Source: a virus. From it: a DNA stretch of 64,000 bases. Below, in pieces: positions 2,758 through 58,830 of this stretch; the first letter of the stretch is position 1, and each line of letters starts with the position of its first letter. Position numbers and translations under genes: made by a program. Under the pieces are notes generated by a model, which was not told where the DNA came from, ran no database searches, and was given only the letters and a program-made list of their open reading frames with translations. The stretch is taken from IMG/VR virus record IMGVR_UViG_3300042507_006854, positions 64,001-128,000 of that record; one strand, 5' to 3'.

Positions 2758-3357
2758 ATGGTAAAAGATTTAAAAAAACATTCTGATAATCAGTTAATTA
2801 ATAAAGTTAAAAAAAATAATTGCAATGATAGTCTCAAAGAGCTTGTAGATCGTCATAGTGGAATGATTTTTAATATGGGGAAAAAATATTGCCCATCTTG
2901 TAATCTAGATTTAAATGATTTAAGTGGTAACAAATATTGGATTATATTTAATGCAATCCAATCTTATGATTCAGAAAAAGGGAGTAAATTTTCTACTTGG
3001 TTAGGTAATCAAATAAGATTCTTTTGTTTAAACCATAAAAATAAAAATACGAAACTTATACCAACAGAAAATGATTCTTTAGAATTTTTTCTTAATGACT
3101 TCTTAAAAAAAGAAAATACCTCAAATAAGAAAGAAGTTATAGACAAAATTATTGATTTATTTAATCAAATTTCAGATCCAAATACTAAAAATGCTATTTA
3201 CTATAGATATTTTTATAACAAAGAACGCATTTTAAATTATGCAGAAATTGCTGAAATCTTGAAAGTTACTCCTCAAACAGTTCTTAATTGGCATAATAAA
3301 TTTATTAGGCTTGCACAAAAAAAATTGACAAACAAATCATCTATTGATATTATATAA
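2758..3357 (+). CDS. Sigma-70 family RNA polymerase sigma factor
   Basis: Region 2 (YDSEKGSKFSTWL) and region 4 HTH (YAEIAEILKVTPQTV). Confidence 0.85.
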   Translation: MVKDLKKHSDNQLINKVKKNNCNDSLKELVDRHSGMIFNMGKKYCPSCNLDLNDLSGNKYWIIFNAIQSYDSEKGSKFSTWLGNQIRFFCLNHKNKNTKLIPTENDSLEFFLNDFLKKENTSNKKEVIDKIIDLFNQISDPNTKNAIYYRYFYNKERILNYAEIAEILKVTPQTVLNWHNKFIRLAQKKLTNKSSIDII

Positions 3358-3362
3358 AAATT

Positions 3363-3668
3363 ATGGATAACAATGATAAAACTAAACTCGAAGAAGCTGG
3401 TGCCTTTTGGATCAAGACTTCTAAAACTGGAAACCAATTTCTTACCGGAAAAGTAAAATCAAAGTCTGGGGAAGAAATTAGTGTTATGGTATTTAAGAAT
3501 AAATATAAAACTGAAGGGTCTAATCAACCTGATTACAGAATTTATTTTGATAACGGTCCTCAAAAAGTTAGCATTTCTACTACGAAAGCGGAAGAGGCGC
3601 CTAAAAAACAAAAAGCCCTTCCTAAAAAGGAAGAGTCTGCACCAAAAAACGAAGAAATTCCATTTTAA
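3363..3668 (+). CDS. DUF736-like / putative ssDNA-binding protein
   Basis: GAFW..SKTG..FLTG, PDYRIY, acidic EEIPF tail. Confidence 0.6.
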   Translation: MDNNDKTKLEEAGAFWIKTSKTGNQFLTGKVKSKSGEEISVMVFKNKYKTEGSNQPDYRIYFDNGPQKVSISTTKAEEAPKKQKALPKKEESAPKNEEIPF

Positions 3669-28878: not shown

Positions 28879-28897
28879 AATTTTTATATTACACTAG

Positions 28898-29209
28898 TTA
28901 AGAACCGAAATGTTCTATTTTTCCGCTCCCATTACAAAATGTGGCCATTCTTTGAAAAGTTTGTCGATTAGGATTTCCTGGTTTTTCAGTCCATTGATCG
29001 GGATTATCTATAAAGTCTTGCCTCATTTTTGCTTGATCTTCTTGTGATAAAGGTTCTCCGTCACCAGGTTTAGGATCATTTGGGTCACCGTTATCTCTTG
29101 AGTGCTCTGGGTCATCAAAATAATAATTTAAAGGCCCCTCATTTAACTGTTTAAATGACAAGGTTAGAAGTCTTCTACAGCAACCATCTGGAGGTCCACC
29201 AGCTTGCAT
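28898..29209 (-). CDS. Small CCxR/NPDxW/FC family protein, paralog 1
   Basis: CCRR..DNPDQW..TFCN. Confidence 0.75.
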   Translation of the reverse strand: MQAGGPPDGCCRRLLTLSFKQLNEGPLNYYFDDPEHSRDNGDPNDPKPGDGEPLSQEDQAKMRQDFIDNPDQWTEKPGNPNRQTFQRMATFCNGSGKIEHFGS

Positions 29210-30829
29210 TTATTGATTCCTTGGTGGGTCAATACAAATGACTTGTTTATTAGCTAATTTGAAACATCCGTAGACCCCAGATGGAATACTTTCTACTGTT
29301 TCATAATCATAAATATTCGTAGTATATAAGTTACGGAATCTTCTTGTTTTAGAATTATCTGGGAAAATTTTTATACCAGAAGGTAAATTTTTTCTTAATT
29401 GCAAATAACTATTATTAATTCCTTTTCTTAAATTATTATTTGATAATTCAATAGATTTTCTGAGATTATATGATAATCCGAACCCTCTTTTTAAGACTGG
29501 CTCTGAGATAATAAAATTTCCACTTCCCGTAGTTAAAGGATTTTTAAAAGTATTTCTTATTGTTTGATCAATGTATGAATTATCTCCGTAATTTTTATAG
29601 AAGAATCTAAATTCGTTATTTGTGCCCATACGGCCATCTTTAGTCGTGATATATTCTAAAGTAATAGAATGTCCAGATGGTATTGTCCCATCCCATGTAC
29701 CCGTCGCCAAAGTTTTATTATTTATATATAAACCACTGTAAAATTTATAGAACCACGTGTCTTTTAATGGGGTTGTTTGTTTTAATACGTTTAATAATTT
29801 ATATTTATTATTAATTCCCGAATTAAAATTATCTATTATTGGGTTTAAACTTATGCCAGAATCAAATATATTTTGACCGCTAGGTAAATATTCAGAACCA
29901 ATATCTAAAATATTAACACTAATCCCAGAATTAATTTGAACATATTCATATTTTGGTGGTTTACCAGCAACTTTGGGTTGAATTTTTGAAAGTCTTAACT
30001 CTAAATTATCAACTATAGTATTAACAAATCTGTTTTGCACCCCGTGAGGACTAACATAAACAATTTTTTCTGTTCCGTTTGTTGATTTTAATGATGCGAC
30101 TAATAATCCATTCATGTCTTTATACATTTCAGGATATGTATAAACCGAATCTAAAGCGATAACAGTATTTAATTGAAAAACTGGATATTGCCAAAGAGTT
30201 ACGCTATTTGGGTATGGTAAATAACCTGAAACATTTTCATATTTCTTATATAAGAATGTATTTCTATTGTCGTAATTAATTCCGCTATTATAACCGGTAA
30301 TATAATAGCCTGATGTTATAACATTGTTTTGAATAGTAATTGGTTGATAATTAAGTTTAGCTCCTGTTAAAGATGTATTGTTTGATAGATTTGCGGGAAA
30401 TTGAATTCTAGAGAAAGGTAAATTTCTATCAATACTTTTGAGATGTGTTTCTCTCGATTCTAAAAGTGGTTTAAAAAAATTGCTATTTAAAGTTTCAAAT
30501 CTGATTTTATATGGAGCGAAATAAGAATAATCTCCATAGAAATTTAAGGCAAGTTCTGAAATAGTTTCATAAATTTTATTATCATTTTTAATAATAATAT
30601 TTTCAAAAGCGTTTTGCTTTCTTCTACTAAAAAGAATATCATTATAAAGAGTTTTTCTTAGAACTGCTGTCGGTATAACGTTTCTTAAAGTTCCAAGATT
30701 TATTACATCAAATTTATAGTCACGAATTCTCGAATTTGGGTGTGGCTTAGTATCTATTCCAGCCCCATCAAATGCAGATGGAACAAAACTTAACCCTAAT
30801 TTTTTATAATTATTTGTCGAAAGACTCAT
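29210..30829 (-). CDS. Ribozyme-linked large protein, paralog A (putative virion protein)
   Basis: NLGTLR, KIVYVSPH, LKQTTPLKDTWFYK, TGTWDGTIPSG, GCF..CIDPP shared with paralogs B-D. Confidence 0.75.
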   Translation of the reverse strand: MSLSTNNYKKLGLSFVPSAFDGAGIDTKPHPNSRIRDYKFDVINLGTLRNVIPTAVLRKTLYNDILFSRRKQNAFENIIIKNDNKIYETISELALNFYGDYSYFAPYKIRFETLNSNFFKPLLESRETHLKSIDRNLPFSRIQFPANLSNNTSLTGAKLNYQPITIQNNVITSGYYITGYNSGINYDNRNTFLYKKYENVSGYLPYPNSVTLWQYPVFQLNTVIALDSVYTYPEMYKDMNGLLVASLKSTNGTEKIVYVSPHGVQNRFVNTIVDNLELRLSKIQPKVAGKPPKYEYVQINSGISVNILDIGSEYLPSGQNIFDSGISLNPIIDNFNSGINNKYKLLNVLKQTTPLKDTWFYKFYSGLYINNKTLATGTWDGTIPSGHSITLEYITTKDGRMGTNNEFRFFYKNYGDNSYIDQTIRNTFKNPLTTGSGNFIISEPVLKRGFGLSYNLRKSIELSNNNLRKGINNSYLQLRKNLPSGIKIFPDNSKTRRFRNLYTTNIYDYETVESIPSGVYGCFKLANKQVICIDPPRNQ

Positions 30830-30834
30830 AGTTT

Positions 30835-30900
30835 ACCATCCCCTGTCAGACACTATTCGGCGCTCTCTCTTGGTGAGCGCCTACTTCCGGTCTAACTGGG
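30835..30900 (-). ncRNA. Predicted 66-nt circular RNA exon A
   Basis: Between omega-G (30901) and GGGAUGGU|AAAC, which pairs with the IGS; folds as a rod. Confidence 0.65.
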
Positions 30901-31140
30901 CAACTTATGTTATCGTGCGGGAGTTTACCCCGCACATCTCTACGTCACCGTAGAGTTCAGACTATATCTTGTTTACGTTTGCACGTAAATCAGGGCGCTC
31001 GTGGGAAGATTACTGTCCGTTCTGGACTCGCTTCCTAGTCGTTACACCTTTTTCGTATTCCTACGAAACTTGGCTCGGTATTGTCTTTGCCGCGTTAGCG
31101 GCAAAGAGTTCCACCGAATTCACCCCGAAATGGCCTAAAT
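30901..31140 (-). ncRNA. Group I ribozyme copy A (permuted, IA-like, no ORF)
   Basis: P GAAUUCGGUGGAA, Q AAUACCGAGCCAAG, R GUGUAACGACUA, S AAGAUAUAGUCU; P3, P7, P8, P9 pair; ends AAGUUG. Confidence 0.9.
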
Positions 31141-31185
31141 TTTAAAAGATCGATAATAATATTTACACGTAAATTTATGTTTTTT

Positions 31186-31896
31186 TTAAAAAATATTTAA
31201 ATTTGAAGAGAATGTTTCTTCAACAATTCTTCTTGCTTCTTTATCCTCAGAATCTTTAACAGCGTAAACTAACTTATTATTATAAATACTACATTTATAA
31301 ATAGAATCTCCAGCTAAGTTTTTAATTTCTTTAAAGTTGCCTTTAAAATCAATTAAATATGAACGATAAACGCCATCCAAATCTGAAACAGTTATAATAA
31401 ACCTGTCTTCTTGTTCAAAAACATTTGTTAATCTATAAATAAATTTATATTCAAAAGGTAATTTAAATAGTTCATCGTTAACAATTAATTTATCATGACC
31501 ATGTTTATGATCTATAGAAAACAATTTATTTTGAATCAAGCAAGAGCTAAACGATCTTGTTATTATGTTCATATCTCCAATAATATTTAAATTGGAATCT
31601 ATAGGGATATTAATATAACAATATACAATAGGTGTATTTAAACCTTGATTAAAACCAGCTGTATAGCCAAGATAAAGATTATTATCTTTAATTAAAATAT
31701 GTGGATTACACTCTACGAGAATATCTCCATAAATGCCATATTTCGGGGTATTAATTTCAGATTCAACATTATTCGAATCTTTCTTCCAAATTTTCCACGG
31801 AACGAGTTCGTATTCTCCGCCAAAATTTAATTTAATAGAATTTTCTGCAGAACAATATAGTAAGAAATTAGAAGATAAATAAGGTTGATGTTTCAT
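31186..31896 (-). CDS. Hypothetical protein (beta-rich)
   Basis: 236 aa ORF, last in cassette B. Confidence 0.6.
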   Translation of the reverse strand: MKHQPYLSSNFLLYCSAENSIKLNFGGEYELVPWKIWKKDSNNVESEINTPKYGIYGDILVECNPHILIKDNNLYLGYTAGFNQGLNTPIVYCYINIPIDSNLNIIGDMNIITRSFSSCLIQNKLFSIDHKHGHDKLIVNDELFKLPFEYKFIYRLTNVFEQEDRFIITVSDLDGVYRSYLIDFKGNFKEIKNLAGDSIYKCSIYNNKLVYAVKDSEDKEARRIVEETFSSNLNIF

Positions 31897-31913
31897 TTTT
31901 TTATTAATTTTGT

Positions 31914-32660
31914 TTATTCCAATGAATCTAAAAGAATGTCCAAACTCCGTGAAGATGTAGTTGAAGGGTCATTGCCTCCACAGTTTTTTCTTAGTTCCAT
32001 ATACCCAGGATAAGTATAACCAGGTGGTTTAAATTTATTAGGCGGTTTACAACTATCACCATAATTGACTCCAGCACCCGCTTCTACGAGTGAATAATTA
32101 CAACCACAACCACCGCTACCATTTTGTTGATTTCTTTGAGCTTGTCGCATAGCTCTTTCTAAAGTTGCCACTGGATCCATGTCACCCTCAAGTTGTGCAG
32201 CATCAAAAGCGTCATAGAATTCTTGTTCTCTGTCGGTTGGTCCGCCCGATTCGCAACCTGTTAACGCACTAGCTACGGCGGCAGCGCTCCCTGCACCAGC
32301 TAACCATTTAGCCGTGCGCGCGGGACCACTTTGTTTAAGTTCTTCTGTAGCTTTATCTATCATACTATTACCAATACCATTTGCAATTTTTGACTGTAAT
32401 TCTTGACAAGTGTAATTACTATCCGATCCAGGAAAAAATTTTTCATTACTCTTGCCAGATTTAAGGTTAGTATAAGATTGATGAAATCCTCTACCACCAT
32501 TCGGACCCCAATGAGAAGTTTTCCAAGAGCCACCCAAAACAATGTCATCTGGTGTTGGTAAAGCTCCACAACTATTTAATTTATCTGCCGCAGCTTTTTT
32601 AGCGCAACTTGGGAAAGCAAATCGCATGGCTTTTATAAATTCAATTACAGCTTTTATCAT
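31914..32660 (-). CDS. Hypothetical Ala/Gly/Cys-rich protein
   Basis: 248 aa; internal hydrophobic helix ending LTGC. Confidence 0.65.
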   Translation of the reverse strand: MIKAVIEFIKAMRFAFPSCAKKAAADKLNSCGALPTPDDIVLGGSWKTSHWGPNGGRGFHQSYTNLKSGKSNEKFFPGSDSNYTCQELQSKIANGIGNSMIDKATEELKQSGPARTAKWLAGAGSAAAVASALTGCESGGPTDREQEFYDAFDAAQLEGDMDPVATLERAMRQAQRNQQNGSGGCGCNYSLVEAGAGVNYGDSCKPPNKFKPPGYTYPGYMELRKNCGGNDPSTTSSRSLDILLDSLE

Positions 32661-32662
32661 AT

Positions 32663-33598
32663 TTAAAATCTCCTATAATCGGGTTTGTTTTGAATGTTTG
32701 TAGTATTTGGTTTTAATGGGTTCATATTTAAAACTCTATTACCAAAAACCTCTACATCAAAATATTTTCTAGTTTTTACTTCGACATATGGAAAATGAAT
32801 AAAAATTATAAATTCTAACGGTTTTTGAACAATACTCTTGTCATTATTAAATTCATTTAGTAATGAAGATCTTAAACTTGAAGTTAAATTATTAAAAGTT
32901 GATGAATTCCAACTTTTCGCCGCAATATGTGGAATAATAGATCTTTGTGGTAAATTATTTATTATATTGTAAATAGATTCTATAAAAAGATATGTAATTG
33001 ATCTATTAATAGATGGATCCATTAAAAATTCTATATTAGAATTTACAGGCGTATTTTTTAGAGGGCCATACCACGGATTTGTTCCGGATGGGTTCGCTGT
33101 ATAATATACATCATGATAAAAACTGCCACATTTATTATTAGCAGATAATGAATTAAAAAGTTTTTTATTTTCTAATTCATAATTAATTGTGTTAGCGAAG
33201 ACCTCAAGGCTATCCCTATTAATTATTTGATTTTCTCTATTAATTGGATAATAGAATCCTGATATTAATGATAATTTACTATTTAAATATTTAATTAAAG
33301 GATCAGGATTAGAATTTTCATTATTATTTACCAAGGTCGTGGGATATGGACGACTAACGTCATTAGTAATATCAACTGTTATTAAACGAGATGGATAAAA
33401 ATTAATATCAATATTTGCAATATTTGTTCGAAAACCTTGTTCATGATGAACTATTGTAGACAGTTCTTCAATATTAAGACCTGTTTCAGGAGTTTTATCT
33501 AAAAAAACTACTCGGGCTGCATACCATTGAGGATTCGTTGGGCTGAATTTTTGAGTTAATGGGGTTAATGCAGTATTCATATTTATGTATAGCTCCAA
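32663..33598 (-). CDS. Hypothetical protein
   Basis: 311 aa ORF; start may be a few codons later. Confidence 0.6.
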   Translation of the reverse strand: MELYINMNTALTPLTQKFSPTNPQWYAARVVFLDKTPETGLNIEELSTIVHHEQGFRTNIANIDINFYPSRLITVDITNDVSRPYPTTLVNNNENSNPDPLIKYLNSKLSLISGFYYPINRENQIINRDSLEVFANTINYELENKKLFNSLSANNKCGSFYHDVYYTANPSGTNPWYGPLKNTPVNSNIEFLMDPSINRSITYLFIESIYNIINNLPQRSIIPHIAAKSWNSSTFNNLTSSLRSSLLNEFNNDKSIVQKPLEFIIFIHFPYVEVKTRKYFDVEVFGNRVLNMNPLKPNTTNIQNKPDYRRF

Positions 33599-36327
33599 AC
33601 TTTAAGTGGACCTCCGTTTATAGTCGTCCAGCGGTCTAAAATTGTATAACCATTGCCTAAAATAGGCTCAGATATATAAATATCACTACCCTGACCGCTC
33701 AATTTACAATAAATATCATTATTTGATAATTTAAAGCATCCTCCAGAATTTGGTGGAATATTAGCGATAGAATAATAATTATAATTACCAGGTTTAATTC
33801 CAGTAAAATAATTTTCAAAATATTGTCCTATAAGAAAACTTTTAATTCTACGGTCATTCGCGGTATAATTAACAATTTCTGGCAAAAATTTTCTTATCTT
33901 TGCAATGTAAGAATTTCTTTCAAACTTTCTATATTTTAGTTTATTTTTCCAAAAAGCTTCATTTAAAGAATTAAATGAGATACTATAAAAAGTTTTTTTT
34001 GTATTATATTCTTGTAACATCATTATCATTTTAATATAAACATCTTGTACCGAATTAGATCCATAATAATCATGCACTAATAAAAATTCATTTGTTGTTC
34101 CACATGGATTTTCACTTGTTGATAGGTATTCAATAAATAATTGAGTACCACTTGGTATAATTCCATTCCAAGTTCCGGTATTAAAAGTTTTACCGCCATT
34201 CCCAGTTGTATAAATTCCACTGTATAACTTATAAAACCAAGTATCTTTTATAGGAGTTGTTTGTTTTAAATGGTCACTAATTTTATATAAATCATTATTT
34301 ATTAAATGATATCCAAATATAGATTGATTAGCTTGCTCTGTAATTTGTTGGGTTGTTAAGCCTGGATATAAATTATATAATGCTGGATTTTGGGCAACCC
34401 AATCTTGAGTCACGTATCCACTTTTTGGCCAAAGACCACTACCCGTAGTAGCTGTATTAAGTCTTTCTATATATGGTTTAGAATATAATCCAGAATCTGG
34501 AAATACAAAACCACTATTATTATGAAAAGAGTCTAGGTCATACCCAAGAATTGTAATTCCAGAAACTACTTTTCTATATTCTAAACTTGGGGCCGATAAT
34601 CTTCTTATATAATCTCTTCCGATTAGTATAGTTGTTTCAATTCCGCTATTATGAATTATATTACTCCAATATCTTTGTTGTGTAGTGTTTGTTGTTAATG
34701 CGAATCCAGACCAATTAATTCCGTTAGATGACTTAAAACCGCTAGAAGTTTGTGAATAATTGTCTGGAATAATAGTCCATTCTTTACCATCATGAGTAAT
34801 TCCGGCCCAGCTTGTATTAGCTGGTAAAGTTCCTACAGACCATCCGCTACCATTTGTAGAAGTAAGATATTGATTGCCATATGATGGTATCCCAATAAAT
34901 CTTCCATTTGCAAATTGTATATCTTTAATATAAAGACTTCCTGGAAGTGAGAATTCTTGCCAATTAATCCCATTTAGAGAAATAGCTCCCATAGGAGAAG
35001 AGTAAAATCCGCCACCAGCATTATTAATAGCGACCCATTTACCATCTCCATAAGCTAAAGATCTATAATCTGTTTGGCCAGCAGATGTTGGTAATGCTGC
35101 ATTTCCACTCCAATTTACTCCGTCTGTAGAAGTAATAGTTCTATCAGAACTATCTCTACCTAATATTACCCAACGATTGATACCATTAAAAACAATTTTT
35201 TTGAACTGCGTCATTGGGAAATATTGACCGTTATTACTTCCATTTATATCTATTTCTGACCATGTTTGTCCATTATTAGTGGACGTAGCCCCTTTTGCAA
35301 AAGAAACATTATGAAAGGATGGAAGAGCTATCCAACGACCTGTTCCATAAGCGATATTTGCCCATAGAGCGGTATGAGGTAAAGCTTCAATACGTAATTC
35401 CCAACTTTTTCCATTTTGTGATCTAGCGAGATCTGTTGTGCTACCACCATATTTGTTTGACCCAACTGCAATCCAATAACCACTACCATAATCAGCATCC
35501 ATCCACTGCCCATCAAGCCTTGTTTCAACATCTTTTTGTTGTTTAGACAGCGAAACTTCTATATTCTCTACAATTGTATTAAAAAATTGTTTTTCGGCTT
35601 TGTGTGGGCTAATATAGACTATTTTTTGGTTAGTTGGTGTTCCCGTACTTAAAATTAATAATCCATTCATTGGGGCATTTGGTAAAAATGCATTTCTAAC
35701 TAATTTTGTGGGTATATTATATTTTGGATAAGTTTGTTGGAAAATTGTTTGTGGATATGGTACATAAGCCCCAGAATAAGATACGAAATGATTTTTTTCT
35801 TCTAAAGATTTAATAATCGGGTTATTAATATTAGGAGTTTTATATGTTGTAAAATATCCTGATAATGTATTTGTATTTGATACTTTCCATTCTCTTGGAA
35901 AAGAAAATCTTGCGTAAGATTTAAGAGGGTCTGTATTTCTAACATGTGACGCTGGTAATTTAAGCATCTTGCTATAAAATTTTTGGTCAAAAAAATCTAA
36001 ATGAATTAAATTCATTTTAAAACTTTCTAGCTCCCCATATTTTTTTTCAAAAAATTCTGAAAAAGCTTTATAATAAATATCTGAAGGTAATTTATTATTT
36101 GACCATATAACTTTGCCGTAATACCCAGCACTATTACTATCATTAAAAAATTCTATTTGTTTTTCTGCAACAATCGCATGATTTGGATTTTTTAAAGTTC
36201 CAAAATTTGCGTTTTTTGTAATGAATGACGCCAATGCCGCATTTTTATTAGGAACTAAATTTACGTTTTCAAGTAACGAAAGTGTTCCGCCTAATCCAAG
36301 ATTAGTTGCATCATTATAAATACTCAT
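33583..36327 (-). CDS. Ribozyme-linked large protein, paralog B, with inserted Asp-box-like repeat domain
   Basis: Family motifs plus repeated S.[DN]G..W / AYG.G.W.A units. Confidence 0.78.
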   Translation of the reverse strand: MSIYNDATNLGLGGTLSLLENVNLVPNKNAALASFITKNANFGTLKNPNHAIVAEKQIEFFNDSNSAGYYGKVIWSNNKLPSDIYYKAFSEFFEKKYGELESFKMNLIHLDFFDQKFYSKMLKLPASHVRNTDPLKSYARFSFPREWKVSNTNTLSGYFTTYKTPNINNPIIKSLEEKNHFVSYSGAYVPYPQTIFQQTYPKYNIPTKLVRNAFLPNAPMNGLLILSTGTPTNQKIVYISPHKAEKQFFNTIVENIEVSLSKQQKDVETRLDGQWMDADYGSGYWIAVGSNKYGGSTTDLARSQNGKSWELRIEALPHTALWANIAYGTGRWIALPSFHNVSFAKGATSTNNGQTWSEIDINGSNNGQYFPMTQFKKIVFNGINRWVILGRDSSDRTITSTDGVNWSGNAALPTSAGQTDYRSLAYGDGKWVAINNAGGGFYSSPMGAISLNGINWQEFSLPGSLYIKDIQFANGRFIGIPSYGNQYLTSTNGSGWSVGTLPANTSWAGITHDGKEWTIIPDNYSQTSSGFKSSNGINWSGFALTTNTTQQRYWSNIIHNSGIETTILIGRDYIRRLSAPSLEYRKVVSGITILGYDLDSFHNNSGFVFPDSGLYSKPYIERLNTATTGSGLWPKSGYVTQDWVAQNPALYNLYPGLTTQQITEQANQSIFGYHLINNDLYKISDHLKQTTPIKDTWFYKLYSGIYTTGNGGKTFNTGTWNGIIPSGTQLFIEYLSTSENPCGTTNEFLLVHDYYGSNSVQDVYIKMIMMLQEYNTKKTFYSISFNSLNEAFWKNKLKYRKFERNSYIAKIRKFLPEIVNYTANDRRIKSFLIGQYFENYFTGIKPGNYNYYSIANIPPNSGGCFKLSNNDIYCKLSGQGSDIYISEPILGNGYTILDRWTTINGGPLKVWSYT

Positions 36328-36335: not shown

Positions 36336-36401
36336 AACCAACAGAAGAATTTTTTTTCATACCGGGATTCAATCCGGCCGAAATGATTTACTTCCACTTA
36401 T
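36336..36401 (-). ncRNA. Predicted 66-nt circular RNA exon B
   Basis: Between omega-G (36402) and UGGUU|AAAAA pairing with IGS GACC. Confidence 0.6.
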
Positions 36402-36640
36402 CAACGTGTTATCGTGCGGGAGTTTACCCCGCACATCTCTACGTCACCGTAGAGTTCAGACTATATCTTGTTTACGTTTGCACGTAAATCAGGGCGCTCG
36501 TGGGAAGATTACTGTCCGTTCTGGACTCGCTTCCTAGTCGTTACACCTTTTTCGTATTCCTACGAAACTTGGCTCGGTATTGTCTTTGCCGCGTTAGCGG
36601 CAAAGAGTTCCACCGAATTCACCCCGAAAGGTCATATTAA
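36402..36640 (-). ncRNA. Group I ribozyme copy B (permuted)
   Basis: Core 36407-36629 reads identical to 30908-31130; ends CACGUUG. Confidence 0.9.
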
Positions 36641-36643
36641 TAT

Positions 36644-36667
36644 TTTAAAGAACAGTAATAATTACAC
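36644..36667 (-). promoter_or_regulatory. GTGTAA promoter motif plus boxA-like GTTCTTTAAA ahead of ribozyme B (equivalents at 31141-31168, 40519-40542, 48799-48823)
   Basis: Same arrangement before all four ribozymes; the boxA-like motif also precedes the tmRNA, tRNA-Val and the 58.5 kb RNA. Confidence 0.65.
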
Positions 36668-36700
36668 TTAAATATTTGAAATGTAGATTTTTTTATAAAA

Positions 36701-37481: not shown

Positions 37482-38336
37482 CTAACCTATTACTGGCCAT
37501 AGTTGTGCCCCTCCGTTCTGTGAAGAATTTTGTGCTTCTCCGTCTATTTCATCTGAACAGCTATCGCCCCCATCGTCTGTTTCGTCTAAATCTTCCTCTT
37601 TTTCATCTTCTTCTTCTTCGTTTTCGTCGTCATCGTCTTTATCGGGCGGATAATCTTTATTACGTTTTCTATTCTTATCGGGTCTTTTATCTCTACATCC
37701 TGGACAATTTGGATCATTATTACTTATTACCGTATCATCGGGATTTAGTAATTCATTTGCCAAAGCGCCTACCGCTCCTGCAGCGAGAGTCGCGGCGGCT
37801 CCAACTCCTTGAGGACTACTGAGAGCGCCATCTATCGCAGCTTTTGTAGCCGCTTTAGCTTCTGCATTTAAAGCTGTTTGCTCCATTTTTGCTAAGCCAT
37901 GAGCATGCTCTCTTATAAAATTTTCTTTACGTACAGTTTGATTTAACAGGTCAGATTTTCTCACCTCGTTAAAATTTTCCATTAGAGATTTAGCGCTTGT
38001 ATCTCCACGCCAAGCTGCTTGTTTAGACGCTTTATCCCATAAGCTTGCTGGAGAGGATGGTTTGAGAATGTTGTCTCTTAAATAACCTTGCATTTCGGGC
38101 CTATTAAGTTGTGCCCTTGCAGCTTGAGTTATTCCATCTCGACCAGTATTATTTACGATAGTATTACTAACTTCACCGATTTTATATCCAGGTTTACCAA
38201 CACCAGCCTTTAATCCTTGAGAAATACCTCTTGATGTTGACCACGATTTACTTACAGCCTTTGCTGCTGCAGCCACTGCAGCGCTTTGTGTCGCAGCTCT
38301 TGCGGCGAGTCCACCTAATAGTAAAGGAAATCCCAT
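37482..38336 (-). CDS. Ala-rich protein with acidic C-terminal tract
   Basis: Hydrophobic Ala/Gly helices, CPGC, poly-D/E. Confidence 0.65.
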   Translation of the reverse strand: MGFPLLLGGLAARAATQSAAVAAAAKAVSKSWSTSRGISQGLKAGVGKPGYKIGEVSNTIVNNTGRDGITQAARAQLNRPEMQGYLRDNILKPSSPASLWDKASKQAAWRGDTSAKSLMENFNEVRKSDLLNQTVRKENFIREHAHGLAKMEQTALNAEAKAATKAAIDGALSSPQGVGAAATLAAGAVGALANELLNPDDTVISNNDPNCPGCRDKRPDKNRKRNKDYPPDKDDDDENEEEEDEKEEDLDETDDGGDSCSDEIDGEAQNSSQNGGAQLWPVIG

Positions 38337-40201
38337 TAGCTACCTCCCCCCGCTGCCGATGGAGCTAATTTAAAATTTGAATGTCTACGAGAAAACGTAT
38401 TTAAAGAAGGATAAGCTTTCAATCTTTTTCTATTAAAAAAGGTAAGAGATCTTTTCATGCGATTTGTTTGTGTCATAAGTAGTGGGAATTTATTTATTAT
38501 ATTTTTTACATATAAATTTCTTTTATATACCTCAAATTTTTGAAAATTTTTCCAAAAACCGTCCTCCATAGAATTAAAAGATATAGAGGTAAATTCTTTA
38601 GAAATACTAGTATCAAATAATAAAGATAATCCCATTGATTTTTTAATGGACACATCTATCAAAGAATTATCTCCATAATTAGAATGAACTAGCAAAAAGT
38701 CTGCATTTGTACCGCATGGTTCTTCGTTAGTGCTAAGATATTCCATAAAAACAGTTGTTCCGCTAGGTATAATTCCATTCCAAGTACCCAAATTAAATGT
38801 TTTATTTCCGGTATATAAGCCACTATATAATTTGTAAAATAAAGTATTTTGAATCGGAATTTCTTGTTTTAAGAAATTATTTACTTTATAGACATTACAA
38901 TCTAATAACATTGATACAAAATAATTTAAATTCGCCTGTTGTAAATTATCTAAACCAGAAATAAAAGAAATATTATCTGGAGCTGGCGCGCTTCCGCTTA
39001 TAAATGAATTCATAGTATTAAGATATGTTAACATTTCATTCGTAATTAATCCGGAAATAGGCCAGGTGCTCATAATACCTGTATCTCCTAAATTAGCTAA
39101 TTCCGTGGGACTTTTAGAAATCAAACCTGTTGGAAATACAAAACCATTATTTACATATATTGAATTTACGTCTATCCCAGGAACCGAAATACCATATGAT
39201 GTTTTAACATAATTTAAAATTCCTGTATAACCAGTAAATGAACATGATCTAGGATCACTTGGATTAATATATTTTTTACATCTGAAGTTATTAAATGGTT
39301 TAAAATTTTGAACACTCGTTTCGAAAGTTTCTACTACTGTATTAAAAACTCTTGTGGATCCGCTATGTGGTGAAATATACACAATTTTCTGAGAATAATG
39401 ATTACCAGTAGAAATTAGTAAAATACCATTAAGATTACTATTTGCAGAAATAGAATTTTGAGTAATTACGGTGTCAATATTTAATCTTGGTAATTGATGC
39501 AAGTAAATTGATTGTGGATAGATTACATATCCAGAATAATCTTTATTATAAATAAAATTATTAATGTTATTTATAGCATTTAATGTTGCTAAATTTCCAG
39601 TAACAAAAGATCTTCTTAAATTTCCAGTTAATTGTTCAAAATTATAAACATTTGGAGAATCGATATAATCAATAATTCCGGTCGATAAGCCAGAATTAAA
39701 AAAACCAGTTACTGGAACTGATTTAATACCAGATAAAATTTTTGTATTGTGGACGCCCCAATCTTTTGGAAATGAAAATCTTACATAATCTAATAGAGGA
39801 TGGGTATCTTCATTATTAAAGTTTTTGTTTATTCTTATAAAATTAAAAAATCCTTGATCAAGAGTATCTCTTTGAATAGGTGGAGTATCGATACTATACA
39901 ATTCACCATAAAAAGTATGAGAATATTTTGAAATAGTTTTAAAATAATCTTTAACATTTAAAGGATGTTCGGTCCAAACGATTTTGCTATGATAAGCTTT
40001 TAAATTCTCATCTATAGAATTATCAATTTCTTTTTGTAGTACAAGCGCAGTGTTAGGGACTCTTAAAGTACCAAGGTTATCGATAGAAATAATATAACCA
40101 TTTAATTTTGTGTTGAGAGAAGGGGTTAGATCAACGTTCTCTAACAAATTAATAGGCCCTCCAAACCCAATTTTACTAGCATCGGAAATTAGTTGTTGCA
40201 T
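38336..40201 (-). CDS. Ribozyme-linked large protein, paralog C
   Basis: NLGTLR, KIVYISPH, FYKLYSG, TFNLGTWNGIIPSG. Confidence 0.75.
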   Translation of the reverse strand: MQQLISDASKIGFGGPINLLENVDLTPSLNTKLNGYIISIDNLGTLRVPNTALVLQKEIDNSIDENLKAYHSKIVWTEHPLNVKDYFKTISKYSHTFYGELYSIDTPPIQRDTLDQGFFNFIRINKNFNNEDTHPLLDYVRFSFPKDWGVHNTKILSGIKSVPVTGFFNSGLSTGIIDYIDSPNVYNFEQLTGNLRRSFVTGNLATLNAINNINNFIYNKDYSGYVIYPQSIYLHQLPRLNIDTVITQNSISANSNLNGILLISTGNHYSQKIVYISPHSGSTRVFNTVVETFETSVQNFKPFNNFRCKKYINPSDPRSCSFTGYTGILNYVKTSYGISVPGIDVNSIYVNNGFVFPTGLISKSPTELANLGDTGIMSTWPISGLITNEMLTYLNTMNSFISGSAPAPDNISFISGLDNLQQANLNYFVSMLLDCNVYKVNNFLKQEIPIQNTLFYKLYSGLYTGNKTFNLGTWNGIIPSGTTVFMEYLSTNEEPCGTNADFLLVHSNYGDNSLIDVSIKKSMGLSLLFDTSISKEFTSISFNSMEDGFWKNFQKFEVYKRNLYVKNIINKFPLLMTQTNRMKRSLTFFNRKRLKAYPSLNTFSRRHSNFKLAPSAAGGGS

Positions 40202-40209: not shown

Positions 40210-40280
40210 AACCAATGAATAGATTACCTGGAGCTCTAGCTTTTCTGGGTGCCGGAGCTTTATTCTTTCTATACAATTAT
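40210..40280 (-). ncRNA. Predicted 71-nt circular RNA exon C
   Basis: Between omega-G (40281) and UGGUU|AAAAA pairing with IGS GACC. Confidence 0.6.
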
Positions 40281-40515
40281 CAACGTGTTATCGTGCGGGA
40301 GTTTACCCCGCACATCTCTACGTCACCGTAGAGTTCAGACTATATCTTGTTTACGCTTGCGCGTAAATCAGGGCGCTCGTGGACAGTTTATTGTTTTGTG
40401 CTACTCACTGTCTAGTCGTTGCACCTTCTACTTACTATTGCACTTCAGTAGCTTGGCTCAAGATTGTCTTCTTAAAAAGAGTTTCCTTGAATTCACCCCG
40501 AAAGGTCATATTTAA
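40281..40515 (-). ncRNA. Group I ribozyme copy C (permuted)
   Basis: P/Q/R/S conserved; compensatory changes in P4 (UUCAAG/CUUGAG) and P8. Confidence 0.9.
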
Positions 40516-40593
40516 ATTTTTAAAGAACATCCTTTATTACACATTTTTAAATAAAAACCTTGTTTTTTTTAAAAAAAACTTTATAATTCTTTT

Positions 40594-44089: not shown

Positions 44090-44206
44090 ATATTGATATT
44101 ACACTCAAAAAATAGATTATCTACTTTTTTTTAAATTAAATTATTTAATTTATTTACATTACACTTTTTTTTATATTTAAATAGATTATTTATATAATTT
44201 ATAACA

Positions 44207-45146: not shown

Positions 45147-45204
45147 AATAATATTATTACACTTTTTTAAAAAAAATTGACTTATTTAAATTAAATGCTA
45201 TAAT

Positions 45205-45764: not shown

Positions 45765-45821
45765 TATTCATAATTACACATAAAATAGATAGTTTTTGTT
45801 TTAAAATTTAAAATAATACAA

Positions 45822-46234: not shown

Positions 46235-48334
46235 TCATAGGGGTGGATCAATACAAACCCCGATACCCCCAGATAGAGTAAAACATCCAAAAACTCCAGG
46301 AGGAATATCTGATATTGTTGCATAATCATAAGGCAATACTTTTTTCCATTCTACTTTTTGTCCGGAGATAAAAGTATCTTCGATCAAATTATTATTTGTT
46401 AATCTAAAACCGGCACGAGTTGATATACCGGTTGGAAGTCCAGGGCGATTTCTGAGAGGAATGCCAGCATATCCTGTATAAGAACATGACATTGGGTCAG
46501 AAGGGTTAATATAGGTCTTACAGTATCTACCCACACCGTCTTTTGGATTATTTTTAACAAGATCTAAACGGCCCATCAAATCAATCATTTTTCTTACTTT
46601 TGCATTACCTTTTGTAATTCCTCTTGACCATAAATAACCATATAATCGAGATTTCGCTTGTTTACTTGCTTTTCTACTGGCTAAATAAGATGCTTCATAT
46701 TGATTATTTGCACTAGCAGTAACTTTATATCCATAAAATATACCTGAACCTAATAAACCACTAGGGTTTTCGGAATATTGATAAATTCCGCTCCCACTTT
46801 CAGAAGAAAGGATGAAAGCATTAGAGATATATACATTTAAATTTGGGGTCGTAATTTCTGAATTTTTCAATCTGACCGTTTCAATAGAAAAAGGTGTTCC
46901 GCTTGGAATTATTCCATTCCAAGTGCCAGTGTTAAAAGTATTTTTTCTATATACTGGCTCATACAATTTATAGAACAATGTGTCCTTTAAAGGAATTTGT
47001 TGTTTTAATCGTGCCGCATCAAAATTGTAAAAACGTTTAGAAGAACCACTTGTTATCTTAGTGATATAATTTAAGCCAGTATAATTATAATCAAAACTGG
47101 AGACGCTTGTTAAATTTCCACTTTGTAATAAATAGACATCTCTTGAATTAATTATTCTACCATTACTTCCAGTAATTGGAATACGGCTTGAAGAAGATAA
47201 TTCGGCCCAAAATCCGGCGAAATTTTCAATAGCGTGAGGACTTACGTAAACAATTTTTTTAGATGATATCCCAGTACTTACAATGATTATGTCACTAATT
47301 TTATTTCCATTATTTTCAAAAGTAATAACACTATTATATCTTAATGCTGGGTAGCTTTGAATATTATAGGAATGGGGATATGTTATCCAGTTATTATTAG
47401 CTGGAAGATTTCCACTTGTATTCCCTACAACACCATTCACAGATGAATAAATTTTATTTTTACCGTTAGAAATTCTTGTCGTTGCTAATTTAAAAAATCC
47501 TTCTAATTCAATTTCTTCTGAAACAGGTAAAGGATTTGATCCACTTGTGGAGCTTGAACCTGTAATTTGCCAATTATTTCCCGTAGGCAAAGTATTATTT
47601 CCAAGAAGAACATACAAAGGACGAAAATTTAATCTCCATTGATCTCTTTGTCTTAAAACCCATCCACTTTGCGTAGGTACAGATATAAAACCAGATATTC
47701 CAGATACAAAATTATTATTTTGAAACCAAATCATATCAACTGGTATAGAATTAGAAGAATTTACATATCTTGTTTTATTATTTATAACCCCATTTGGAAC
47801 AAAAATTCCATTAATTGGGAGGGAGGACTGACTTACTATAATATTTTGACTTTTTGTAAAACCGGAAGACAATGCGAAAAATTTTTGCTGTTCTCCTTGC
47901 GAAATTCCAGTCACGCCACTTTGAATAGTTATAGAAGTAACTCTTGAAGATAAACGGTTAAAACTTGCAAAAAGTGGATCATAAGGATTATTTTGATCGA
48001 TTGATGAATTGCTTTGATATGTTAAGACTTGACCATTTAAAACAATTTCGCTAAGAGTTTCTTGAAAATAATATTGTGGTGCAGATTCGTTTTTTATTTC
48101 AATTGGATAGTAACCTTGCGTCTCATTATCAAAAATGACCAATTTCTCAATCGGTTTTCTCAAAGTTCCAACGTTAATAGTTTTTAAATCTATTTTAGAA
48201 TAACTATTAAAATCTTTTATCGTCTTATTTAGACTGATTGGGGTAGAAGTTGAAATTTTTTGCTCAGACTTGCGAATGTCTACTAGATAATCTTTTTTAG
48301 ATAATCCTAATTTTTTCCTTTTAAAGTTATTCAT
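46235..48334 (-). CDS. Ribozyme-linked large protein, paralog D
   Basis: NVGTLR, KIVYVSPH, LKQQIPLKDTLFYKLY, TFNTGTWNGIIPSG, GCF..CIDPP. Confidence 0.75.
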   Translation of the reverse strand: MNNFKRKKLGLSKKDYLVDIRKSEQKISTSTPISLNKTIKDFNSYSKIDLKTINVGTLRKPIEKLVIFDNETQGYYPIEIKNESAPQYYFQETLSEIVLNGQVLTYQSNSSIDQNNPYDPLFASFNRLSSRVTSITIQSGVTGISQGEQQKFFALSSGFTKSQNIIVSQSSLPINGIFVPNGVINNKTRYVNSSNSIPVDMIWFQNNNFVSGISGFISVPTQSGWVLRQRDQWRLNFRPLYVLLGNNTLPTGNNWQITGSSSTSGSNPLPVSEEIELEGFFKLATTRISNGKNKIYSSVNGVVGNTSGNLPANNNWITYPHSYNIQSYPALRYNSVITFENNGNKISDIIIVSTGISSKKIVYVSPHAIENFAGFWAELSSSSRIPITGSNGRIINSRDVYLLQSGNLTSVSSFDYNYTGLNYITKITSGSSKRFYNFDAARLKQQIPLKDTLFYKLYEPVYRKNTFNTGTWNGIIPSGTPFSIETVRLKNSEITTPNLNVYISNAFILSSESGSGIYQYSENPSGLLGSGIFYGYKVTASANNQYEASYLASRKASKQAKSRLYGYLWSRGITKGNAKVRKMIDLMGRLDLVKNNPKDGVGRYCKTYINPSDPMSCSYTGYAGIPLRNRPGLPTGISTRAGFRLTNNNLIEDTFISGQKVEWKKVLPYDYATISDIPPGVFGCFTLSGGIGVCIDPPL

Positions 48335-48373: not shown

Positions 48374-48565
48374 ATCCGCCATCCAGATGTCAGTTACTAG
48401 CCCGAGTAATTCTCCGACCATGAAGAATTTTCCCAGTTGGGTCCGAATCTGGTAGGTCATTACAGCATTGCCATTGTGAATTGATTCACCATGCTCAATC
48501 CGCTATATTTATAGCTCTAATTTAAAGCGATAAAGGTAGCGGATTGAGAATACAACGTGTCTCAT
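48374..48565 (-). ncRNA. Predicted structured circular RNA exon D (192 nt; 179 nt if omega-G is 48553)
   Basis: Ends AUGGCGGAU|AAAC, pairing 9 bp with IGS GUCCGUUAU; multiple internal helices. Confidence 0.62.
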
Positions 48566-48793
48566 CATTGTGTTATCGTATAAGTGTTTATCTTATACAT
48601 CTTTGCGTCACCGCAAAGTTCAGACTATATCTTCTTTTCTTTTGAAAAGTTCGGGCGCTCTTGGGCTATTTTATTGTTGGGACTCAACAGCCTAGTCGTT
48701 ACACCTTCCATCCTATCTTTCCCAGATGGCTTGGCTCGGGATTGTCTTTTTATAAAGAGTTCCCCCGAATTCACCCGATAACGGACATTTTTT
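48566..48793 (-). ncRNA. Group I ribozyme copy D (permuted, most diverged)
   Basis: GAAUUCGGGGGAA, AAUCCCGAGCCAAG, GUGUAACGACUA, AAGAUAUAGUCU. Confidence 0.9.
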
Positions 48794-48867
48794 TAAATTT
48801 TAAAGAACTATTTATTTTTACACAAAATAATATTGAATACCCCAAAAAAATTTATTATCATAATAAT

Positions 48868-49143
48868 ATGCATGAATATATAGCTGAAATTTTTGGAATA
48901 ATAATGACGATCAGTTTTATGTTTTGTTATATTCCCCAAATTTTAAAGATTTTTAAAAATCGTTCTTCTAAAGATGTTTCTTTAGCCTTGATATTAATGT
49001 CAATTTGTGGTTACATATCTGGCATGGTATATATGTTTTTGACCCAATTTGGGGTTTGGTGGTTTGCAAATTACTCAGTTGGGTTAGTAATGTGTATAAT
49101 ATTAGTTTACGCTTGGTTTAAATTTCAAAAAGGAGTACGGTAA
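48868..49143 (+). CDS. PQ-loop / SemiSWEET-like membrane protein
   Basis: YIPQILKIFKNRSSKDVS, three TMs; start moved to MHEY. Confidence 0.8.
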   Translation: MHEYIAEIFGIIMTISFMFCYIPQILKIFKNRSSKDVSLALILMSICGYISGMVYMFLTQFGVWWFANYSVGLVMCIILVYAWFKFQKGVR

Positions 49144-49213
49144 AGTTGGAGAGTTACATCAGACTGTAAATCTGACGCCATTGGCTTAGTAGGTTCGAAT
49201 CCTATTGCTCCTA
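49131..49213 (+). tRNA. tRNA-Tyr(GTA)
   Basis: Cloverleaf, TCAGA-CTGTAAA-TCTGA, variable arm. Confidence 0.9.
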
Positions 49214-49230
49214 GTTCTTTAAAATTTTAT

Positions 49231-49302
49231 GCACGGTTAGCTCAGTGGTAGAGCGGCTGCTTTACACGCAGTTGGTCGGGGGTTCAAATCCCTCACCGTG
49301 TA
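49231..49302 (+). tRNA. tRNA-Val(TAC)
   Basis: Cloverleaf, loop TTTACAC. Confidence 0.92.
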
Positions 49303-49389
49303 CGTTTTGGGATTATCTCGTAAAAGGAGCCGACTTTCCGCTGGTTGTGGTTTTCCCAGAGCAGTCGCGGGTAAACTGCTCACATTTAA

Positions 49390-49462
49390 GGGGGTGTAGC
49401 TCATCTGGTAGAGCAGGACCTTTGCAAGGTCAAGGTAGCAGGTTCGAGCCCTGTCACCTCCA
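49390..49462 (+). tRNA. tRNA-Ala(TGC)
   Basis: Cloverleaf, G3:U70, loop TTTGCAA. Confidence 0.92.
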
Positions 49463-49466
49463 AAAT

Positions 49467-49548
49467 GCTGATGTGGCGTAATTGGCAGCCGCGACAGACT
49501 TAGGATCTGTTTTCTTCGGAAGTGTAGGTTCGACTCCTATCATCAGCA
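49467..49548 (+). tRNA. tRNA-Leu(TAG)
   Basis: Cloverleaf, loop CTTAGGA, variable arm. Confidence 0.92.
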
Positions 49549-49614
49549 CTTTCTTCTTGATTATTAATTAATTATATGTATAATAAATAAAGCGTGTGAA
49601 GCAAGTTCTCTATT

Positions 49615-56890: not shown

Positions 56891-57087
56891 TGAAATTAGA
56901 TTTTACAGAAATCAATGGTAAACAACTTCAAGTTACCGACATGGAATATCTCTATACTTATACAAGTAACGATGGAGAAGAAATAGCAGTATTTGAATAT
57001 CAAGGGGAGCGAATTGAGAGAAAGGTAATTAAAAATACTTAATTTTTGGGGGTGGGTTTAAATAAATTTAAAGTGTAATATTATATT

Positions 57088-57492: not shown

Positions 57493-57500
57493 TTTAAAAG

Positions 57501-57949
57501 TGGAGATGAGGGGAGTCGAACCCCTGTCCAAATAACTTACGCTAAAAGGTCTACATGTTTAGGTATCTTTAGCATTTCAGCTACCATACGGTAACGAAGA
57601 CTTTAGGCTGCTTGGTGACACTAACCGGGTTTTTAGTCTGCCTATGCAGAGAATGTTCTGCATAACACCTAACAATTAATTTTACAAGTAAGTTAGGACT
57701 TCATAAACCTATTGCGGTTCCAATGCTTTTAATAGGATCCAGACATTGGTTCTTAGGCAGCCATCAAGTACTCTTCTTCAACACCGCCGAGAAACTCGTC
57801 GGAGTTGTTAAAGATATACTCAGCTTCTGCCAAGATCGAGTCAGTATTATCTTCTGCTCTTAGTTTTTTAATCGATTTTTTACGAGGCCATCGATTAACC
57901 TCGACATGCGCTTTTAATTTCAACTATTTGTCGAAACCAGTACATCCCC
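57501..57949 (-). ncRNA. ssrA: tmRNA
   Basis: 5' GGGGATGTACTGGTTTCGAC; 3' GGGGTTCGACTCCCCTCATCTCCA; tag ORF ending YLMAA*. Confidence 0.93.
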
Positions 57950-58821: not shown

Positions 58822-58830
58822 AATTTTAAT

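What the first reader, a model, noticed from the sequence alone, without database searches (positions are those of the whole stretch)
30835..30900. Predicted circle A is a rod with a loop E/sarcin-ricin-type motif
Seen (minus strand): CCC-A-GUUAGAC pairs with GUCUGAC-A-GGG; GGCGCUC pairs with GAGCGCC around loop ACCAAGAGA; the internal loop has AGUA opposite GAA, the bulged-G motif signature. Exons B and C also fold as imperfect rods of similar length (66, 71 nt) despite unrelated sequence, and C has a similar apical loop (ACCCAGAAAA). Inference: circles are selected for size and shape and could be stable decoys or ligands, e.g. for host defence or RNA-binding proteins.
Basis: partly seen in the sequence, partly recalled or inferred. 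Interest (0 to 1): 0.7.

Follow-up and report, generated by a model that had tools for sequence, protein, structure and literature searches.

The report
Rod-shaped insert of permuted phage ribozyme
The 66-base piece is a real, evolutionarily conserved RNA rod that sits between the swapped splice sites of a rearranged self-splicing (group I) ribozyme in an uncultured phage, so it is predicted to be released as a tiny RNA circle, but its "sarcin-ricin" loop is not conserved and nothing shows the circle has a job of its own.

Summary
The pairings at 30835-30900 (minus strand) are all present. The 66 nt fold far better than shuffles (z -4.7 linear, -4.2 circular).

The piece lies between the terminal G (30901) of a group I ribozyme core (Rfam 69.9 bits) and a site that pairs with the ribozyme's guide sequence (31130-31134), 5 nt before the ATG of ORF 29210-30829. 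There is no upstream exon.

About 25 related elements from other viral and metagenomic contigs have the same layout. Their guide and downstream site covary (0 of 5000 permutations reach the observed score).

Seven orthologous inserts keep the rod through compensatory changes; an eighth ortholog has a 43-nt insert that is not a rod. All nine independent small inserts (62-71 nt) are end-closing rods (joint chance about 8e-8).

The AGUA/GAA signature occurs only in A and a near-identical copy. It is absent from the other orthologs and arises in 0.5% of shuffles. Other family members carry 119-192-nt inserts, so size is not universal.

Best reading: the rod holds the two splice sites together. The circle is a predicted product of unknown function. 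No RNA data could be obtained.

This scan has noted natural permuted group I ribozymes on other DNA (29 notes, at least 24 genomes). In the held paper library I found only a coral mitochondrial case and engineered constructs.

The parts
30835..30900 (-). 66-nt insert ('exon A', the predicted circle): an unbranched rod. Basal stem 30898-30900 with 30841-30843; A.A mismatch 30897/30844; outer stem 30889-30896 with 30845-30853; internal loop 30882-30888 opposite 30854-30858; inner stem 30875-30881 with 30859-30865; apical loop 30866-30874.
   Evidence: Covariation in orthologs.
30882..30885 (-). AGUA of the loop E-type signature (5' strand of the internal loop). Its partner GAA is at 30856-30858.
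   Evidence: Found only here and in L104, so not conserved.
30835..30839 (-). AUGGU, the 5'-splice-site strand of P1. U30835 forms the G.U wobble, and predicted cleavage falls between 30835 and 30834.
31130..31135 (-). Internal guide sequence GGCCAU, just 5' of P3. G31134 pairs with U30835.
   Evidence: L112 has GCCUU paired with AAGGU, a compensatory change.
30901..31129 (-). Group I ribozyme core A: P3-P9, P7.1, P9.1 (30915-30935), the conserved GAUAACA (30908-30914) and the terminal G at 30901.
   Evidence: Rfam RF00028, 69.9 bits over 30938-31200. Thirty-five of 49 predicted pairs show compensatory changes in 23 family members.
31162..31168 (-). GTGTAAA, a promoter-like motif. The same motif ends about 8 nt before the ATG of other genes in this phage.
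29210..30829 (-). Downstream ORF of 539 aa with no family match. It is a paralog of the ORFs after ribozymes B and C. After the predicted cut its leader is 5 nt (AAACU).
36336..36401 (-). Insert B, 66 nt, behind core B (Rfam 36437-36673, 68.3 bits; terminal G 36402) and before ORF 33583-36327.
40210..40280 (-). Insert C, 71 nt, behind core C (40316-40565, 81.6 bits; terminal G 40281) and before ORF 38336-40201. The upstream neighbour is a divergent plus-strand gene starting at 40594.
48374..48565 (-). Insert D, about 192 nt, behind core D (48601-48839, 76 bits; terminal G 48566) and before ORF 46235-48334. A second guide-complementary site lies at 48498.
   Evidence: The distal site is conserved in L007.

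Best explanation
The 66 nt are the insert of a naturally permuted group I ribozyme opened in the P1 loop. The transcript starts at a phage promoter about 30 nt before the guide sequence. It then runs through the complete catalytic core to the terminal G (30901), through the 66-nt insert, and into the mRNA of a structural-type gene. The guide (31130-31134) pairs with the last five bases of the insert, not with anything upstream. In step 1, exogenous G would cut between 30835 and 30834. This frees an mRNA that carries the added G and a 5-nt leader. In step 2, the new 3' OH of U30835 would attack behind G30901 and close the insert into a 66-nt circle. The rod is conserved mainly because it holds the 3' splice site (at its base) and the 5' splice site (6 nt from its base) side by side next to P1 and the active site. 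It also keeps the insert folded apart from the core. The AGUA/GAA loop is a feature of this lineage only, not of the family. Shown here: the ribozyme core, its covariation, the P1 covariation, the absence of an upstream exon, the conserved rod, and cut sites 2-9 nt before the start codon. Inferred: both chemical steps, the circle, and the role of the rod.
For: Core: Rfam 69.9 bits. Four paralogous cores lie in the window. Thirty-five of 49 pairs are compensatory in 23 members. No upstream exon: core C abuts a divergent gene. The promoter-like GTGTAAT motif lies just upstream, and the same motif sits about 15 nt before the ATG of other genes in a phage with almost no Shine-Dalgarno sites. The guide fits downstream better than upstream in 21 of 25 elements. 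P1: the best guide complement lies 2-9 nt before the ATG in most elements. Fourteen guide variants are matched by their own sites, and a class-level permutation reached the observed score 0 of 5000 times. L112 shows a two-sided change against A. The unconstrained fold of the 325-nt precursor gives P1 plus the rod. Rod: z -4.7 and -4.2. Seven orthologs keep it with different inner-stem sequences. In the outer stem 94.8% of cells are paired, against 26-48% when slid, and the covariation score was reached by 1 of 500 shuffles. Nine of 9 independent small inserts are end-closing rods. No sequence word is shared between insert classes beyond chance.
Against: Neither cleavage nor a circle has therefore been observed. 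P10 for A is only about 1 bp by hand reading, although it is 3-8 bp in B, C, L106, L007 and L041. The terminal G was assigned as the first UG after GAUAACA, which is a weak criterion on its own. B and C fold no better than shuffles in energy. One ortholog, L111, has a 43-nt insert that is not a rod, so the rod is dispensable in at least one lineage. The A-rich apical loops (AC...AAAAGA) recur in orthologs and in C and are not explained by a pure spacer role.
Confidence: 0.6

Rival explanations
1. The circle is the point. The rod, with its S-turn-like internal loop and A-rich apical loop, is a stable small RNA that acts in trans, for example as a protein ligand or as a decoy that mimics the ribosomal sarcin-ricin loop. 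The ribozyme exists to make it.
For: There is an exact AGUA/GAA match flanked by Watson-Crick pairs. The fold is very stable. The terminal G and, in several members, P10 are kept, which only step 2 needs. Sizes cluster at 62-71 nt in 14 members. AC...AAAAGA-type apical loops recur in orthologs and in C.
Against: The motif is absent from six of the seven other orthologs and from all other insert classes. Paralogous inserts within one phage share no sequence beyond chance. Insert size ranges from 43 to 192 nt across the family. No partner is known.
Confidence: 0.2
2. Only the first step matters. The ribozyme is an mRNA 5'-end maker that trims a long leader to a near-leaderless message. The rod stays attached to the ribozyme as a peripheral 3' domain that stands in for the missing P2 and helps the core fold, and no circle accumulates.
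For: Cut sites lie 2-9 nt before the ATG in most members. The phage otherwise uses leaderless-type starts. These elements have no P2. P10 is weak in A.
Against: A promoter placed at the ATG, as at other genes in this phage, would give the same mRNA without a 300-nt ribozyme. The UG terminal-G context is present in all 26 elements. P10 of 4-8 bp occurs in L007 and L041 (hand reading).
Confidence: 0.15
3. This is an ordinary group I intron in a 5' UTR. Its 5' exon lies upstream, and the rod is simply a leader hairpin of the 3' exon that regulates translation.
For: Rfam aligns an A/U-rich P1 upstream. Core C has an upstream AAGGUU that fits its guide with 6 bp.
Against: That upstream site lies beyond the promoter-like motif and is not conserved in L106 or L108. 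A, B and most others have no upstream complement. The downstream sites covary with the guide. The Rfam P1 region scores poorly and is low-complexity.
Confidence: 0.05

Closest known systems
Phage group I introns of the IA2 type (Rfam RF00028; e.g. T4 td, Twort orf142, Bastillevirinae introns, PMC11878797)
   Same: The catalytic core is the same: P3-P9 with P7.1 and P9.1, the J8/7 and P7 sequence, a G.U at the 5' splice site and a terminal G. The best partial DNA matches are to introns of Bacillus and Enterococcus phages.
   Different: No gene is interrupted, there is no upstream exon and no P2. The P1 substrate strand lies 66 nt downstream of the terminal G, so the splice sites are in reversed order.
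Engineered circular-RNA constructs: the permuted intron-exon (PIE) method, and designs with the whole ribozyme core at one end (PMC11417360, PMC10415121)
   Same: The topology is guide plus core, then insert, then 5' splice site, which yields a circular insert by normal group I chemistry. Small structured inserts and end-joining helices aid circularisation.
   Different: Those constructs are man-made. This one is natural, sits in a phage 5' UTR, and releases a downstream mRNA at the same time.
Back-spliced giant group I intron in mushroom-coral mitochondrial ND5 (Chi et al. 2019, PMC6545197, as cited in PMC8637638)
   Same: It is a natural group I RNA whose precursor order requires back-splicing and gives a circular product.
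   Different: It is mitochondrial, its exons are protein-coding and kilobases long, and its purpose is to restore an ORF. It does not produce a 66-nt non-coding rod.
[quoted passage not shown] 2021, PMC8637638)
   Same: They are free-standing permuted self-splicing ribozymes in bacteria that make small RNA circles of unknown function.
   Different: They belong to a different ribozyme class and chemistry, and they never abut an ORF. These elements sit 2-9 nt from a start codon.
Lariat-capping (GIR1) ribozyme
   Same: It is a group I-derived ribozyme in a 5' UTR whose reaction creates the 5' end of the downstream mRNA.
   Different: GIR1 makes a 3-nt 2',5' lariat by branching and has a remodelled core. 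Here the core is a standard group I core, and only RF00028 matched.
Sarcin-ricin / loop E (bulged-G) motif
   Same: AGUA lies opposite GAA, closed by a G-C pair on one side and an A-U pair on the other.
   Different: It is not conserved in orthologs, and its three-dimensional geometry is untested.

Membership tests
Group I intron (RF00028) | Conserved catalytic core scoring above the curated threshold | tested here: met
   69.9 bits against a gathering score of 50, over 30938-31200. Cores B, C and D score 68.3, 81.6 and 76.0 bits.
Group I intron (RF00028) | Core helices maintained by compensatory changes | tested here: met
   Thirty-five of 49 predicted pairs show both-sided changes in 23 family members.
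Group I intron (RF00028) | P1 between the guide sequence and the 5' splice site, with a G.U wobble | tested here: met
   GCCAU pairs with AUGGU. Covariation extends across 14 guide variants, and 0 of 5000 permutations reach the observed score. The substrate strand lies downstream, not upstream.
Group I intron (RF00028) | Terminal G at the 3' splice site | tested here: inconclusive
   A UG lies 3-7 nt after the conserved GAUAACA in all 26 elements. Its chemical role was not tested.
Group I intron (RF00028) | Interrupts a gene; flanking exons are joined to restore it | tested here: not met
   The element lies between a promoter-like motif or a divergent gene and a start codon, and there is no upstream guide complement.
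Group I intron (RF00028) | Self-splicing activity | not testable with these tools
   Requires in vitro transcription or RNA data.
Permuted intron-exon (circularly permuted group I) | The 3' splice site precedes the 5' splice site on one transcript | tested here: met
   Terminal G at 30901 and P1 site at 30835.
Permuted intron-exon (circularly permuted group I) | A covalently closed insert is produced | not testable with these tools
   No RNA reads were obtainable.
Sarcin-ricin / loop E motif | AGUA opposite GAA, flanked by canonical pairs | tested here: met
   30882-30885 opposite 30856-30858, next to the inner helix.
Sarcin-ricin / loop E motif | Motif (or isosteric variants) kept in homologs | tested here: not met
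   Present only in A and L104. Absent in L105, L112 and L106-L109 and in all other insert classes.
Sarcin-ricin / loop E motif | S-turn three-dimensional geometry | not testable with these tools
   Needs chemical probing or a solved structure.
Viroid-like / Obelisk-like rod-shaped circular RNA | RNA replicon without a DNA copy | tested here: not met
   The rod is encoded in the DNA of a 146,949-bp phage contig.
Lariat-capping ribozyme (GIR1) | Match to the GIR1 model or its remodelled core | tested here: not met
   A permissive Rfam scan of 30700-31300 returned only RF00028.

The most novel reading that the evidence does not exclude
Phages of this group use permuted group I ribozymes to make 62-71-nt rod-shaped RNA circles that are themselves effectors. 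In the A lineage the circle would carry a mimic of the ribosomal sarcin-ricin loop that binds or diverts a host factor or defence nuclease. The same reaction would create a G-tagged, near-leaderless mRNA for a virion protein.
Probability: 0.08. Interest if true: 0.85.

Novelty: new variant of a known kind. Interest (0 to 1): 0.62.

Why it matters
If the chemistry is confirmed, this is a natural counterpart of the engineered route to circular RNA, found in phages. One ribozyme reaction would produce both a small RNA circle and the mature 5' end of a late mRNA, 2-9 nt before its start codon. The comparative data give a design rule: small inserts are end-closing rods, whatever their sequence. That rule is directly testable and may be useful for making circular RNA. 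The data also argue against reading function into the loop E look-alike.

Tried and rejected

2. Close relatives by DNA. Megablast of 29000-32500 against cultured phages found nothing. A sensitive blastn of the element found only 10-23% partial core matches to ordinary phage introns.

3. Exact pattern for insert A in IMG/VR: no hit.

4. Protein A in IMG/VR by peptide patterns: no relative. Relatives came from the large protein collection instead.

5. Pfam and PHROGs on the downstream ORFs: nothing. The protein atlas gave only a 0.85 lead to baseplate J/gp6-like clusters.

6. Shared sequence motif among inserts (GAAGUA, AGUAAAC and others): not beyond chance.

7. The conserved leader GUUCUUUAAAA as a general promoter element: not enriched in the window, with 13 matches against 8.8 expected.

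8. MAFFT alignment of the orthologous inserts misaligned the inner stems. Only the outer stem could be counted formally. The inner stems were compared from individual folds.

9. Literature. Six full-text searches found no natural phage or bacterial permuted group I ribozyme. Hits for "circularly permuted group I" were group II papers or engineered scaffolds.

Full report
**What is at the coordinates.** A 3-bp basal stem comes first, then an A opposite an A, then an 8-bp outer stem with one bulged U. Next is an internal loop of 7 nt opposite 5 nt, a 7-bp G+C-rich inner stem, and a 9-nt apical loop. AGUA abuts the inner stem on the 5' side and GAA on the 3' side. RNAfold gives this structure as the MFE. 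The energy is -27.9 kcal/mol linear and -22.9 circular. Against 500 dinucleotide shuffles, z is -4.67 and -4.24, and no shuffle folds as well.

Inserts B (36336-36401) and C (40210-40280) are also single hairpins. Their energies are ordinary, with z of -1.7 and -0.9.

**Context.** The window is part of a 146,949-bp IMG/VR virus record. It has about 31% G+C, 11 tRNA genes and a tmRNA gene.

- Directly 5' of the 66 nt lies a group I core. Rfam RF00028 scores 69.9 bits over 30938-31200.
- Three more cores lie at 36437-36673, 40316-40565 and 48601-48839. These four are the only copies in the record.
- Each core precedes a large minus-strand ORF with no Pfam or PHROG match.
- The ORFs after A, B and C are paralogs at 28-44% identity. 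A protein-atlas lead to baseplate J/gp6-like proteins is weak (0.85).

**No upstream exon.**

- Core C is flanked upstream by a divergent plus-strand ATPase gene that starts at 40594.
- All four cores are preceded by GTGTAA-N12-15-TTTAAA, a combination found nowhere else in the window.
- GTGTAAT-like motifs alone end about 8 nt before the ATG of several other ORFs. The phage has almost no Shine-Dalgarno sites. The motif therefore behaves like a promoter for leaderless messages. At the ribozymes it would start the RNA about 25-30 nt before the guide sequence.

**Reversed splice sites.** The guide GCCAU (31130-31134), 2 nt before P3, pairs with AUGGU at the 3' end of the 66 nt. U30835 sits opposite G31134.

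I collected about 25 non-identical elements with the same anatomy. They came from IMG/VR pattern scans and from contigs that encode homologs of protein A.

- In most of them, the best guide complement downstream of the core lies 2-9 nt before the start codon. The guide G is at a fixed distance from P3.
- Fourteen guide variants are each matched by their own site.
- Swapping guides among 12 class representatives never reached the observed total. The observed score was 42.5, the permuted mean 26.6 (sd 3.7), and 0 of 5000 permutations were as high.
- L112, an ortholog of A, has GCCUU paired with AAGGU, a two-sided change relative to A.
- The guide fits downstream better than anywhere in the 80 nt upstream in 21 of 25 elements. 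The exception at C is an upstream AAGGUU that lies beyond the promoter-like motif and is not conserved in L106 or L108.
- With no constraints, the 325-nt precursor folds into P1 (guide with insert end), the intact rod, and P3-P9.1. This holds in both MFE and centroid (z -6.6).

**The cores are under selection.** In 23 members, 35 of 49 predicted pairs show compensatory changes. All 26 elements have an A/U-rich linker ending in UG, 3-7 nt after an invariant GAUAACA. By hand reading, P10 is 8 bp in L041, 4 bp in L007, 3 bp in B, C and L106, and only about 1 bp in A.

The layout is that of a permuted intron-exon construct opened in the P1 loop. Step 1 would release the mRNA with a short A-rich leader plus the added G. 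Step 2 would circularise the insert.

- Eight orthologs of gene A were readable upstream. Seven keep an insert with the same plan: L104, L105, L112, L106, L107, L108 and L109 (67-70 nt, z -2.0 to -5.5).
- L104 differs from A by one C-to-U change that turns a G-C pair into G.U.
- The outer stem changes from GUUAGAC/GUCUGAC to GGCUGAC/GUCAGCC and to GGCCGAU/GUUGGCC.
- On the MAFFT alignment, 94.8% of outer-stem cells pair, against 26-48% when the partner is slid. The covariation score was reached by 1 of 500 shuffles.
- The inner stems are 5-9 bp in every ortholog but have unrelated sequences.
- L111 is the exception. Its insert is 43 nt and is not a rod.

Across the family, nine independent small inserts (62-71 nt) all give an unbranched MFE that closes their two ends. 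Only 10-25% of their shuffles do so, and the product of those fractions is about 8e-8. The thresholds were set after seeing the data.

Sizes are 62-71 nt in 14 elements. The others are 43, 77, 79, 119-140 and 192 nt. Size is therefore clade-specific, not universal.

**Loop E / sarcin-ricin claim.** The seven-base signature with canonical closing pairs is there.

- It appears in 32 of 6000 shuffles of insert A (0.5%). It was found after inspecting several loops.
- Only A and L104 have it.
- L105 and L112 have GCAGG opposite AGCGGA at that place. L106, L108 and L109 have an asymmetric (A/G)GAAAG loop. L107 keeps only the 3' GAAUAG.
- GAAGUA recurs in B, L027 and L047, but no word is shared among insert classes more than shuffles allow.

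I therefore treat the motif as a lineage-specific possibility, not as a selected family feature.

Two features are recurrent and remain unexplained:
- the A.A mismatch above the basal stem;
- the A-rich apical loops of the AC...AAAAGA type in orthologs and in C.

**Mechanism.**

- Most likely (0.6): the rod is the scaffold that puts the 3' splice site (at its base) and the 5' splice site (6 nt away) next to P1. These elements have no P2 and no local P1 hairpin. The circle is then the expected product.
- Rivals: the circle is an effector in its own right (0.2); only cleavage matters and the rod is a peripheral domain (0.15); it is an ordinary 5'-UTR intron (0.05).

Shape is conserved without sequence among paralogs in one phage. 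That favours the scaffold reading over a sequence-specific ligand.

**Comparison with what is known.** The core belongs with phage IA2-type group I introns, and partial blastn matches go to Bacillus and Enterococcus phage introns. The defining "interrupts a gene" feature is not met.

- The topology equals engineered PIE and end-placed-core designs (PMC11417360, PMC10415121).
- The only natural permuted group I case I found in the library is the coral mitochondrial ND5 intron (Chi 2019, cited in PMC8637638).
- Natural permuted group II introns make circles of unknown function (PMC8637638).
- Six searches found no description of such phage elements.
- The library lacks most subscription journals, so prior publication cannot be excluded.

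Earlier notes of this scan report natural permuted group I ribozymes on other DNA: 29 notes in at least 24 genomes. Those are unchecked AI notes and are not counted as evidence here.

**Verdict.** The rod is real and conserved, and it is best explained as part of how a permuted ribozyme works. The loop E motif and the decoy idea are not supported by comparative data.

Noticed in passing
window 57498-57949 (-); tRNAs at 49131-49549 and 58830-63845 (+): The phage contig carries a full-length tmRNA gene (Rfam 141.5 bits, with a long insertion in the tag region of the alignment) and 11 tRNA genes.
   Followed up: no
window 28888-28894, 44098-44104, 45156-45162, 45773-45779 (-), 57073-57079 (+) and others: GTGTAAT/ATGTAAT motifs end about 8 nt before the ATG of many ORFs, and almost no ORF has a Shine-Dalgarno site. 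This looks like a promoter that gives leaderless mRNAs.
   Followed up: partly
window 31141-31150, 36643-36653, 40518-40528, 48798-48808 (-); all related loci: A nearly invariant GUUCUUUAAAA segment lies between the promoter-like motif and the guide sequence in every family member. L027 and L047 carry an extra hairpin before it. Its role (RNA element or promoter part) is unknown, and it is not enriched elsewhere in the window.
   Followed up: partly
window 30938-31200 and 36437-36673 (-): The whole-window Rfam scan at gathering threshold missed cores A and B, although they score 68-70 bits when short stretches are scanned. Default filters under-report these elements.
   Followed up: yes
L111:555-597: An ortholog of gene A (62% protein identity) has the ribozyme but only a 43-nt insert. 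The insert folds as two small hairpins, not a rod, and the predicted cut is 3 nt before the ATG.
   Followed up: partly
L106: about 700-1000 and about 3110-3406: A related 130-kb contig also has ribozyme-plus-insert modules in front of two successive paralogous genes, as in the window. The module travels with this gene family, whose members share an N-terminal K-L-G-L-G motif.
   Followed up: partly
window 48498 and 48374 (-): Insert D has two sites complementary to its guide, giving a 68-nt or a 192-nt insert. Only the distal site is conserved in L007. Alternative circles are conceivable.
   Followed up: partly
window 30866-30874 against 31094-31100 (-); L106, L107, L109: By hand reading, the A-rich apical loops of A-type inserts are complementary (5-7 bp) to the U-rich 5' strand of P5 in their own ribozyme. 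This could be chance in A/T-rich RNA or an alternative pairing.
   Followed up: no
L058:11586 onward (+): A group I core with the same P3 motif but no downstream guide match. An open frame starts shortly after the presumed terminal G. It may be a conventional intron related to this family.
   Followed up: no
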